DNA of 64,000 nt from Octopus sinensis (Eukaryota), in NCBI RefSeq assembly GCF_006345805.1, contig NC_042997.1:186000001-186064000 (forward strand). The letters are read 5' to 3'. Of the stretch, positions 7,518-8,836 are shown piece by piece. Position numbers: made by a program. Each line of letters opens with the position of its first letter. The stretch's first letter is position 1.

Positions 7518-8801
7518 TAAGCAATAAAGGGTTTAGCAACGAATTGCCTTACCACATACCGAATTTAGAAATAGCAGTCAAAGAGTTATAGCTATTTCTT
7601 TCTACTAAAAAGGGAGATCTCAGTAAAAACAGCAATTGGAAGGCAGACACAAACTAAGAGAGAATGAATTGACGGCAATCTATATACAATTTTAAGTTAT
7701 CTACGGACGTACGTTTCGAAATCAAGTTTTTAGGAAAGCATAAGAATTAAATATTAAATAATTCTACCTTACCAAAACTTCTTTTCTCTTCAGCGTAGAA
7801 TACTATAATCATAAATGATTATATATTGAATTTTGAGATACTAGAGGGCACCAACTCAACTCAGTATCAGAGCGAGCTAGAATCCGCAACTAGTATCACT
7901 AAATTCAAAGTGTGAATGAAAAGATTGTGTCACCAGCCCCTTCCCACCCGCGTGTAGCCAAAACAAGATGCTGTGGTCATCTACTGAGATAAAATATGGT
8001 TATCCGTAATAATGAAGGGTGAATTAATAATTTGGAATAATTATCAATTACACCAAGTAGTCTTCGGCATGTAAAAGCCTCATTCGAGGAAAATTTAAGT
8101 AATACAAGCAATAAGGGTTTAGCACGAATTGCCTTACCACATACCGAATTTAGAAATAGCAGTCAAAGAGTTATAGCTATTTCTTCTACTAAAAAGGGAG
8201 ATCTCAGTAAAAACAGCAATTGGAAGGCAGACACAAACAGGTAAGAGAGAATGAATTGACGGCAATCTATAATACAATTTTAAGTTATCTACGGACGTAC
8301 GTTTCGAAAATCAAGTTTTTAGGAAAGCATAAGAATTAAATATTAAATAATTCTACCTTACCAAAACTTCTTTTCTCTTCAGCGTAGAATACTATAATCA
8401 TAAATGATGATATATTGAATTTTGAGATACTAGAGGGCACCAACTCAACTCAGTATCAGAGCGAGTTAGAATCCGCAACTAGTATCACTAATTCAAAGTG
8501 TGAATGAAAAAGATTGTGTCACCAGCCCCTTCCCACCGCGTGTAGCCAAAACAAGATGCTGTGGTCATCTACTGAGATAAAATATGGTTATCCGTAATAA
8601 TGAAGGGTGAAATTAATTAATTTGGAATAATTATCAATTACACCAAGTAGTCTTCGGCATGTAAAAGCCTCATTCGAGGAAAATTTAAGTAAATAAGCAA
8701 TAAAGGGTTTAGCAACGAATTGCCTTACCCGTACCGAATTTAGAAATAGCAGTCAAAGAGTTATAGCTATTTCTTCTACTAAAAAGGGAGATCTCAGTAA
8801 A

Positions 8802-8836
<35 letters not shown>

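What the first reader, a model, noticed from the sequence alone, without database searches (positions are those of the whole stretch)
7519..8804. Retrozyme-like tandem array: ~588-bp units, each with an intact hammerhead, predicting a 588-nt self-cleaved (possibly circular) RNA
Seen: about 2.2 near-identical head-to-tail units between (TA)n tracts, with no ORF. Each full unit has a minus-strand hammerhead with a perfect CUGAAGA/GAAA core, GUC triplet and 6-bp stem I; the cut sites (7706/7705 and 8294/8293) are 588 nt apart. Known: Penelope-like element pLTRs and metazoan non-LTR retrozymes are tandem hammerhead-bearing repeats, and retrozyme monomers can circularise. Inference: this is a non-autonomous ribozyme retroelement, and the monomer appears longer than the few-hundred-nt animal retrozymes I recall. 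It may be an undescribed cephalopod circRNA/retrozyme family mobilised by a PLE reverse transcriptase.
Basis: partly seen in the sequence, partly recalled or inferred. Interest (0 to 1): 0.88.

Follow-up and report, generated by a model that had tools for sequence, protein, structure and literature searches.

The report
Hammerhead-ribozyme tandem repeat (retrozyme-like element)
A 1.3-kb non-coding repeat, lodged in a TA microsatellite, carries two complete hammerhead self-cleaving RNA motifs 588 bases apart and looks like an ordinary member of the known animal "retrozyme" class of parasitic elements, not a new kind of thing.

Summary
Window 7518-8804 is a head-to-tail array of about 2.2 copies of a ~588-bp unit. 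It has no ORF longer than 67 aa and abuts perfect (TA)n tracts at both ends. Each full unit has a minus-strand type I hammerhead with a complete core. The C17 positions are 7706 and 8294, 588 nt apart.

Rfam Hammerhead_1 aligns full-length to both copies but scores only 21.1 and 20.9 bits against a gathering score of 34. The shortfall comes from a 65-66-nt insertion in helix II. Larger Rfam searches miss the motif. A descriptor search finds 2 sites, against 0.0067 per shuffled window.

The 588-nt minus-strand RNA folds far better than shuffles (z -6.4, 0 of 100); the plus strand gives z -3.2. Helix III is a palindrome that forms 8 bp in a dimer.

The best reading is a non-LTR retrozyme, a non-autonomous derivative of a Penelope-like element. 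No RT or GIY-YIG remnant was found nearby. The 588-nt size lies inside the published 51-972 bp range. Cleavage, circularisation, copy number and mobility are untested. I score it as a new member of a known kind, of modest interest.

The parts
7473..7516 (.). left flanking perfect (TA)n tract, abutting the array (the 3' side of the element in its sense orientation)
7518..8804 (-). whole array, about 2.19 units of a ~588-bp non-coding repeat; the sense strand (the one carrying the hammerhead) is the minus strand
8294..8804 (-). copy A, 5'-truncated in the sense orientation: it starts at about unit position 79 and ends at hammerhead A
   Evidence: (alignment A1)
8288..8388 (-). hammerhead A: helix I 6 bp, CUGAAGA, 70-nt helix II, GAAA, ACGUACGU, GUC; C17 at 8294, predicted cut at 8294/8293
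   Evidence: Rfam RF00163, model 1-45 of 45, 20.9 bits, gathering 34
7706..8293 (-). copy B, the one full unit bounded by two predicted cut sites; it is the predicted 588-nt released RNA
7700..7799 (-). hammerhead B: the same motif with a 69-nt helix II; C17 at 7706, predicted cut at 7706/7705
   Evidence: RF00163, 21.1 bits, E 0.004 in a 126-nt search
7518..7705 (-). copy C, the 3'-terminal partial unit (about unit positions 1-190 after the cut site); it ends sharply at the (TA)n tract
8805..8834 (.). right flanking perfect (TA)n tract, abutting the 5'-truncated end
10048..10262 (.). diverged ~215-bp relative of the unit, without a hammerhead core, also lodged between (TA)n tracts; part of it matches the unit in inverted orientation

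Best explanation
This is a short genomic multimer of a non-autonomous, non-LTR retrozyme-type retroelement, the class now regarded as derived from the pseudo-LTR of Penelope-like elements (PLEs).

Proposed working, with each step marked shown or inferred:
1. The minus strand is transcribed through the array (inferred).
2. Each unit folds a type I hammerhead with a complete catalytic core (shown in sequence).
3. Helix III is only 2 bp plus a palindromic GUAC loop as a monomer, so efficient cleavage probably needs the double-hammerhead form, in which two neighbouring motifs pair ACGUACGU with ACGUACGU. The pairing is shown by cofold; activity is inferred.
4. [quoted passage not shown]
5. A host tRNA-type ligase can circularise this RNA (inferred by analogy with coral, mussel and axolotl retrozymes).
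6. The RNA is highly self-paired (shown by fold against shuffles).
7. A PLE RT/GIY-YIG enzyme encoded elsewhere nicks AT-rich/(TA)n DNA. It starts reverse transcription at an internal site of the RNA, about 190 nt downstream of the cut site. It then copies more than two unit lengths of a circular or multimeric template and stops early. This leaves the observed form: a 5'-truncated unit, a full unit and a defined 3' end (inferred from the anatomy of the ends).
For: Array of 2.19 units with sharp ends directly on perfect (TA)n tracts. TA-like sequence covers only 2.4-3.9% of the window. A second, diverged fragment of the family at 10048-10262 also lies between (TA)n tracts.

Complete hammerhead core and helices in both full units. 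Of 4227 Rfam families, the best match to each ~126-nt stretch is Hammerhead_1, aligned over model positions 1-45 of 45, with E 0.004 and 0.0046. The Rfam consensus for helix III (ACGcgCGU) has the same palindromic build.

The descriptor finds 2 sites, against 0.0067 per shuffled window.

The architecture matches the published description of canonical metazoan type I motifs: helix I 6 bp, helix II 4 bp, helix III 1-2 bp capped by a 2-4-nt palindromic loop (PMC4209133, text part 1).

The dimer cofold forms the 8-bp intermolecular helix III, at -53.0 kcal/mol against 2 x -20.3.

The 588-nt minus-strand RNA, folded as a circle, has MFE -156.5, z -6.4, with 0 of 100 shuffles as stable and 65% of bases paired. 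That fold keeps helices I and II. The plus strand reaches only z -3.2.

GC is 34.7%, within the under-45-50% reported for animal retrozymes (PMC7229834).

No ORF in the array. No Pfam family in 70 of the 76 flanking frames of at least 60 aa in 1-16000.

PLEs are reported as recently active in Octopus vulgaris: 31 families, 336 insertions (PMC13282606, passages).
Against: No hammerhead match reaches Rfam's gathering score: none in the whole window, none at E up to 10 in 7400-8900, and 21.1 and 20.9 bits against 34 in the small searches.

The 104-nt hammerhead domain alone is not markedly more stable than shuffles: z -1.63 and -1.58, with 16 and 14 of 200 shuffles folding at least as well.

A 69-70-nt helix II is atypical. 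Its effect on the loop-loop contacts that fast cleavage needs is unknown.

A rate of 0.0067 chance sites per 64 kb would mean on the order of hundreds of chance sites in a gigabase-scale genome (my extrapolation). The motif alone is therefore not proof.

Only one array and one diverged fragment could be seen. nhmmer finds nothing else in the window, and no eukaryotic genome collection was available. Dispersal, target-site duplications and copy number are therefore unknown.

(TA)n is common around this locus, so the flanks are only modest evidence of targeting.

No RT/GIY-YIG partner is in the window.
Confidence: 0.68

Rival explanations
1. This is a locally grown minisatellite or satellite (by unequal crossing-over or replication slippage) that happens to descend from a PLE pseudo-LTR or an old retrozyme. 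The hammerhead may still cut transcripts, as in newt satellite 2, but the array is not a product of retrotransposition and is no longer mobile.
For: Only one array is visible, with 2.19 units. The copies are nearly identical: 6 substitutions in 506 compared bases for B versus A, and none for C versus B. Recent local duplication would give the same picture. The 2026 preprint itself proposes local amplification of PLE terminal sequence into tandem repeats (10.64898/2026.07.22.740005, Discussion). (TA)n-rich DNA is prone to rearrangement, and the neighbourhood is full of it.
Against: The array ends sharply and directly on perfect (TA)n tracts on both sides. A second, diverged family fragment 1.2 kb away does the same. 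That looks like repeated insertion into a preferred target. One end is truncated within a unit and the other is at a different unit position, as expected from target-primed reverse transcription with early termination.
Confidence: 0.15
2. The hammerhead-like motif is a chance match inside an ordinary tandem duplication of AT-rich non-coding DNA. No ribozyme activity exists or ever existed.
For: All Rfam scores are below the gathering score. The local fold z is only -1.6. The descriptor does occur by chance: 2 sites in 300 shuffled windows. The finding was picked by eye from many windows, which inflates apparent significance.
Against: Several features coincide that the descriptor did not require. 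G10.1-C11.1 closes helix II. The 1.1-2.1 pair is C-G. Helix III is a perfect 8-nt palindrome, as in the Rfam consensus and in published animal motifs (PMC4209133). The motif sits once per unit of a tandem repeat. The whole unit is strongly structured on the same strand (z -6.4 against -3.2). The global circular fold keeps helices I and II.
Confidence: 0.1
3. This is a remnant of an autonomous Penelope-like element: tandem pseudo-LTRs left after loss of the RT/EN ORF at this locus. On this reading it is not a member of an independently amplifying non-autonomous family.
For: Hammerheads lie in PLE pseudo-LTRs near the 3' end, and PLEs insert as partial tandems with 5' truncation and favour (TA)n (PMC8557442, passages).
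Against: The two full repeat periods follow each other directly, with no ORF or ORF remnant between them. Within the array no frame exceeds 67 aa. There is no Pfam RT or GIY-YIG hit in 70 frames of 1-16000 or in 34 frames of at least 120 aa across the window. The only hit there is a weak zf-RVT, from a LINE-type remnant 45 kb away. The motif has a real helix III, unlike the minimal PLE variants described as lacking it (PMC7761336, passages).
Confidence: 0.07

Closest known systems
Metazoan non-LTR retrozymes (Cervera and de la Pena 2020, PMC7229834: coral, mussel, axolotl; extended to vertebrates in bioRxiv 10.64898/2026.07.22.740005)
   Same: Head-to-tail repeats of a few hundred bp, each with a type I hammerhead. 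No ORF, low GC (34.7% here) and a strongly self-paired predicted RNA. The multimer is short; the preprint reports that 75% of families have at most seven units.
   Different: The monomer of 588 nt exceeds the 170-400 nt of the 2020 paper but lies inside the 51-972 bp of the 2026 preprint. Helix II is a 69-70-nt extended hairpin in place of about 4 bp plus a loop. Expression and circularity are unknown here. The host appears to be a cephalopod. In my searches the only paper found naming hammerheads together with octopus or cephalopods in this sense was the Naiad PLE paper.
Dimer-dependent type I hammerheads of newt satellite 2 / axolotl retrozymes and PLE-associated variants (Forster 1988 and Lunse 2017 as cited in PMC7761336; PMC4209133)
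   Same: Helix III is weak, with a palindromic sequence that can form an extended intermolecular helix between two motifs.
   Different: As a monomer, helix III here could still form 2 bp plus a GUAC loop. Whether the dimer is required was not measured.
Penelope-like element pseudo-LTRs with hammerheads (PMC4209133, PMC8557442, PMC11167929)
   Same: Hammerhead near the 3' end of the repeat unit, partial-tandem structure with 5' truncation, and insertion in (TA)n/AT-rich DNA. The 3' end does not coincide with the ribozyme cut site, which is compatible with internal initiation of reverse transcription.
   Different: No RT/GIY-YIG ORF in or near the array. The unit is 588 bp, not several kb. The motif is a canonical type I form with a helix III, not the minimal variant. 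No 30-40-bp 'tail' could be recognised.
Plant LTR retrozymes (PMC4918200, seen in search listing and abstract only)
   Same: Non-autonomous elements giving ribozyme-bounded RNAs of 600-1000 nt, a size class that includes 588 nt or nearly so, with branched self-paired folds.
   Different: The plant elements carry type III hammerheads inside true LTRs, with a primer binding site and a polypurine tract, and depend on Ty3/Gypsy enzymes. None of these applies here.

Membership tests
Hammerhead ribozyme, type I (Rfam RF00163) | Conserved core: C3-U4-G5-A6-N7-G8-A9, G12-A13-A14, A15.1-U16.1, H17 not G | tested here: met
   CUGAAGA ... GAAA ... GUC in both full units. Rfam aligns every core position.
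Hammerhead ribozyme, type I (Rfam RF00163) | Three helices around the core, with helix I open (type I topology) and G10.1-C11.1 closing helix II | tested here: met
   Helix I 6 bp; helix II 4-5 bp, then an internal loop and a long hairpin; helix III 2-3 bp. The MFE fold forms helices I and II.
Hammerhead ribozyme, type I (Rfam RF00163) | Score at or above Rfam's curated gathering score (34 bits) | tested here: not met
   21.1 and 20.9 bits. No match at all in the larger searches. The shortfall coincides with a 65-66-nt insertion where the model has 10 nt.
Hammerhead ribozyme, type I (Rfam RF00163) | Site-specific self-cleavage after H17 | not testable with these tools
   Needs in vitro transcription of the minus-strand dimer.
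Metazoan non-LTR retrozyme | Head-to-tail tandem repeats of about 50 bp to about 1 kb, each unit with a type I hammerhead | tested here: met
   2.19 units of ~588 bp, with one motif in each of the two units that contain that region.
Metazoan non-LTR retrozyme | Non-coding: no ORF and no LTRs | tested here: met
   The longest frame is 67 aa, with no relatives among proteins of 36-118 aa. No Pfam family for the two longest frames (61 and 67 aa) in the array. No terminal repeats other than the tandem units themselves. PBS and PPT were not searched for.
Metazoan non-LTR retrozyme | Low GC and a stable, highly self-paired RNA | tested here: met
   GC 34.7%. Circular MFE z -6.4, 0 of 100 shuffles, 65% of bases paired.
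Metazoan non-LTR retrozyme | Dispersed multi-copy family in the genome (evidence of mobility) | not testable with these tools
   No eukaryotic genome collection was open. Within the window there is only one diverged fragment, at 10048-10262.
Metazoan non-LTR retrozyme | Expressed as linear and circular monomer RNA | not testable with these tools
   No transcript data available.
Autonomous Penelope-like element | ORF with telomerase-like RT and GIY-YIG endonuclease between the repeats | tested here: not met
   No such ORF or Pfam hit in the array or in 1-16000. Across the window, 34 of the 38 frames of at least 120 aa gave only a weak zf-RVT, DUF6548 and MMPL.
Autonomous Penelope-like element | Insertion bias for (TA)n / AT-rich targets | tested here: met
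   Both ends lie on perfect (TA)n tracts, and TA-like DNA is 2.4-3.9% of the window. This is one locus plus one fragment, so the support is weak.

The most novel reading that the evidence does not exclude
This would be the first recognised cephalopod retrozyme family. It would yield an abundant, highly structured ~588-nt circular RNA. Its hammerhead would replace the usual loop 2 with a ~60-nt helix II extension, so the internal loop 4-5 bp from the core would have to supply the tertiary contact with helix I. It would be mobilised by the Penelope families reported as recently active in Octopus, through internal initiation of reverse transcription on a circular template.
Probability: 0.3. Interest if true: 0.5.

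Novelty: new member of a known kind. Interest (0 to 1): 0.35.

Why it matters
If it is active, it adds a mollusc lineage with very large, repeat-rich genomes to the animals that make ribozyme-processed circular RNAs. It would also give a natural hammerhead with an unusually long helix II for testing how tertiary contacts tolerate extensions. The anatomy of its ends is also of use: a defined 3' end about 190 nt past the cut site, a variable 5' truncation, more than two unit lengths, and a (TA)n target. A genome-wide survey of these features could test whether PLE enzymes copy circular or multimeric retrozyme RNA from an internal start site. None of this changes the current picture of retrozymes; it extends it.

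Tried and rejected
Rfam searches at gathering thresholds on the whole window and at E up to 10 on 7400-8900 gave no hammerhead. They returned only microRNA-like matches in the (TA)n tracts, which I treat as low-complexity noise. Only searches of about 126 nt showed Hammerhead_1.

TRF cannot report a 588-bp period, since its limit is 500.

ARAGORN found no tRNA in 6000-12000, so nothing points to a tRNA-derived origin of the unit.

The 67-aa frame in the array was searched against the protein collection in the hope of finding other copies predicted as spurious proteins. There was no candidate.

nhmmer with the unit found only the array.

A relaxed descriptor gave one further site, at 19493-19588 (+), with a 2-bp helix II and a 1-bp helix III. 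I rejected it as chance.

I considered a second ribozyme on the plus strand, which would suggest a viroid-like or delta-like integrated agent. Nothing appeared.

I considered an assembly artefact. The copies differ by 6 substitutions and 9 small indels, so they are not an exact duplication. Many of the indels lie in homopolymer runs and may be consensus errors, and the exact unit length (584-590 by register) is correspondingly soft. Raw reads were not available.

Not checked:
- Genome contigs holds only bacteria and archaea and was not scanned.
- Supplementary files of the papers were closed. These include hammerhead alignments, retrozyme family tables and the Repbase-type PLE consensus lists of PMC8557442, PMC7229834 and the 2026 preprint, and they may list cephalopod motifs or this family.
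- The claim that no cephalopod retrozyme is in print rests only on searches of the held library.
- The host identification as an octopus rests. It also rests on my recollection that the ~160-bp SINE at 9851-10012 resembles octopus SINEs; no call supports that.

Full report
1. What is in the sequence.

Window 7518-8804 is a head-to-tail array of a ~588-bp unit. Self-BLAST of 7706-8293 recovers 8294-8805 (97.3% over 516 columns) and 7514-7705 (95.9% over 196). Ungapped repeat families give registers of 584-590 bp. An alignment of the three pieces on the minus strand shows the layout in the sense orientation:
- Copy A (8804 down to 8294) starts at about unit position 79.
- Copy B (8293 down to 7706) is complete.
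- Copy C (7705 down to 7518) stops at about unit position 190.

Copies B and A differ by 6 substitutions and 9 small indel events over 516 columns. Copies C and B show no substitution inside the element and 6 indel events. Many of the indels sit in homopolymer runs, so some may be consensus errors. TRF does not report the array because its period limit is 500.

The array abuts perfect (TA)n tracts at 7473-7516 and 8805-8834. No frame in the array exceeds 67 aa (17 frames of at least 35 aa). That 67-aa frame has no relative among proteins of 36-118 aa in the protein collection.

2. The hammerhead.

Read on the minus strand, each full unit carries the following, in order:
- helix I, 5' strand UCUACG;
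- core CUGAAGA;
- a 69-nt (copy B) or 70-nt (copy A) helix II that opens with G and closes with C;
- GAAA;
- ACGUACGU;
- C17, then CGUAGA, the 3' strand of helix I.

Every conserved core position is present, including the C1.1-G2.1 pair and the G10.1-C11.1 pair. The MFE fold of the 104-105-nt domain forms helix I (6 bp) and helix II. Helix II runs 4-5 bp, a small internal loop, 7 bp, and then a further hairpin.

3. Is it more than chance?

A descriptor of my own required CUGANGA, helix II of at least 4 bp and up to 100 nt, GAAA, helix III of at least 2 bp ending in U, H17, and helix I of at least 6 bp. It finds two sites in the window, both in the array. It found 2 sites in 300 dinucleotide-preserving shuffles, or 0.0067 per window. 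The two real sites are copies of one sequence, so this is one event.

Rfam gives a mixed answer:
- Nothing at gathering scores in the whole window.
- No hammerhead at E up to 10 in 7400-8900.
- In searches of about 126 nt, Hammerhead_1 (RF00163) is the best of 4227 families for both copies. It is aligned over model positions 1-45 of 45, at 21.1 and 20.9 bits, with E 0.004 and 0.0046.

These scores are below the curated gathering score of 34. The alignment places a 65-66-nt insertion where the model has 10 nt, and that is where the score is lost.

The domain by itself is not unusually stable: z -1.63 and -1.58, with 16 and 14 of 200 shuffles at least as good. So the motif is complete and in the right place, but it fails the formal Rfam test. 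It would occur by chance some hundreds of times in a gigabase genome (my extrapolation). What lifts it above chance is its context.

4. Context that was not part of the descriptor.

(a) Position. The motif occurs once per unit of a tandem repeat.

(b) Helix III. It is a perfect 8-nt palindrome, built like the Rfam consensus ACGcgCGU. The published description of canonical animal type I motifs is helix I 6 bp, helix II 4 bp, and helix III 1-2 bp with a 2-4-nt palindromic loop (PMC4209133, text part 1). In a cofold of two copies the palindromes pair into an 8-bp intermolecular helix III, at -53.0 kcal/mol against 2 x -20.3. This is the double-hammerhead arrangement.

(c) Overall fold. The whole 588-nt minus-strand RNA is strongly structured. 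Folded as a circle it has MFE -156.5, while shuffles average -116.0 with sd 6.3, giving z -6.4 with 0 of 100 shuffles as stable and 65% of bases paired. This fold retains helices I and II. The plus strand reaches only z -3.2. The strand asymmetry points to the hammerhead strand as the functional RNA.

(d) Base composition. GC is 34.7%.

(e) Insertion site. Both ends lie directly on perfect (TA)n, although TA-like DNA makes up only 2.4-3.9% of the window. A diverged ~215-bp relative of the unit at 10048-10262 matches 8596-8679 at 78.8% over 85 nt and matches 8166-8134 in inverted orientation. It is also lodged between (TA)n tracts.

5. Surroundings.

The window is repeat-dense non-coding DNA. 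A ~160-bp SINE-like repeat has 21 further matches in the window.

Pfam scans of 34 of the 38 frames of at least 120 aa gave only three weak hits: a zf-RVT at 54069-54599 (22.6 bits against a cut-off of 27.5), DUF6548 (2 frames, best E 0.0026) and MMPL (1 frame, E 0.0042). Scans of 70 of the 76 frames of at least 60 aa in 1-16000 gave nothing. So there is no reverse transcriptase or GIY-YIG remnant next to the array.

The LINE-type remnant at 54603-55061 has 395 relatives with E up to 0.001 among 407 candidates. The best named one is from Octopus sinensis (73% identity). Shrimp and sea-anemone proteins follow at about 59-63%.

6. What it most likely is and how it works.

The anatomy matches metazoan non-LTR retrozymes. 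[quoted passage not shown] They have low GC and no LTR, PBS or PPT. They are expressed as self-cleaved linear RNAs and as circles closed by a ligase, with self-paired folds (PMC7229834, Results part 1 and passages; PMC7761336, passages).

A 2026 preprint argues from Xenopus that such elements derive from PLE pseudo-LTRs and depend on PLE enzymes. It reports consensus lengths of 51-972 bp (10.64898/2026.07.22.740005, Results part 1 and Discussion). PLEs insert as partial tandems with 5' truncation, carry hammerheads near the 3' end, and favour (TA)n (PMC8557442, passages). A purified PLE protein cuts AT-rich DNA and starts reverse transcription at an internal site of its RNA (PMC11167929, abstract and main text part 1).

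The ends here are not at the ribozyme cut site. One is a defined end about 190 nt past the cut, and the other is a truncation inside a unit, with more than two unit lengths in between. That pattern is expected if a PLE-type enzyme copied a circular or multimeric template from an internal start and stopped early.

Shown here: the array, the motif, the palindrome, the fold, the (TA)n flanks and the lack of coding capacity.

Inferred: transcription, cleavage (probably helped by the dimer form), circularisation, and mobilisation by a PLE.

7. Rivals.

- A locally amplified satellite descended from a PLE or retrozyme (0.15). It fits the near-identity of the copies and the single visible locus. It fits the ends and the second fragment less well.
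- A chance motif (0.10). It is supported by the sub-threshold Rfam scores and by selection by eye. The coincidences in section 4 argue against it.
- A remnant of an autonomous PLE (0.07). It is disfavoured because two periods follow directly with no ORF remnant.

8. Comparison, novelty and verdict.

The element works like a non-LTR retrozyme and meets every defining feature of one that sequence can show. Expression, circularity and dispersal could not be tested.

As a hammerhead it meets the core and helix criteria but not the Rfam gathering score. I therefore file it as a probable type I hammerhead with an atypically long helix II.

In searches I found no paper in the held library describing hammerheads or retrozymes of cephalopods. 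The one paper sharing those terms in this sense concerns Naiad PLEs. A 2026 Octopus vulgaris repeat annotation lists recently active Penelope families but does not mention ribozymes (PMC13282606, passages). Supplementary tables were closed and may say more.

Verdict: a real feature, a new member of a known kind, interest 0.35.

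Noticed in passing
window 10048-10262: A diverged ~215-bp relative of the 588-bp unit, without a hammerhead core, lying between (TA)n tracts. One part matches the unit directly (78.8% over 85 nt to 8596-8679) and another in inverted orientation. It also carries an internal inverted repeat (75.9% over 116 nt).
   Followed up: partly
window 9851-10012 and 21 other places (e.g. 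17299-17458, 33064-33223, 46772-46932): A ~160-bp SINE-like repeat with 21 further matches in the window, at 70-91% identity. A second SINE-like repeat at 10618-10800 has 3 further matches. ARAGORN calls no tRNA in 6000-12000.
   Followed up: partly
window 54069-55061 (+): A decayed C-terminal part of a non-LTR (LINE-type) reverse transcriptase with one in-frame stop and a weak zf-RVT match. The best named relative is from Octopus sinensis at 73% identity.
   Followed up: partly
window 19493-19588 (+): A relaxed hammerhead descriptor hit with an 8-bp helix I but only a 2-bp helix II and a 1-bp helix III. I take it for chance.
   Followed up: no
window 6529-6790; 9064-9271; 10263-10615; 45505-46080: Dense microsatellites: (ATCT)n of about 54 copies, (TG)n, and long (TA)n tracts. 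There is also a CAC/CAT-type repeat that reads as poly-His in one frame. They produce spurious long open frames and microRNA-like Rfam matches.
   Followed up: no
window 7518-8804: Differences between the repeat copies are mostly 1-nt indels, many in homopolymer runs: 9 indel events against 6 substitutions for B versus A. This may reflect assembly consensus errors and not divergence.
   Followed up: no
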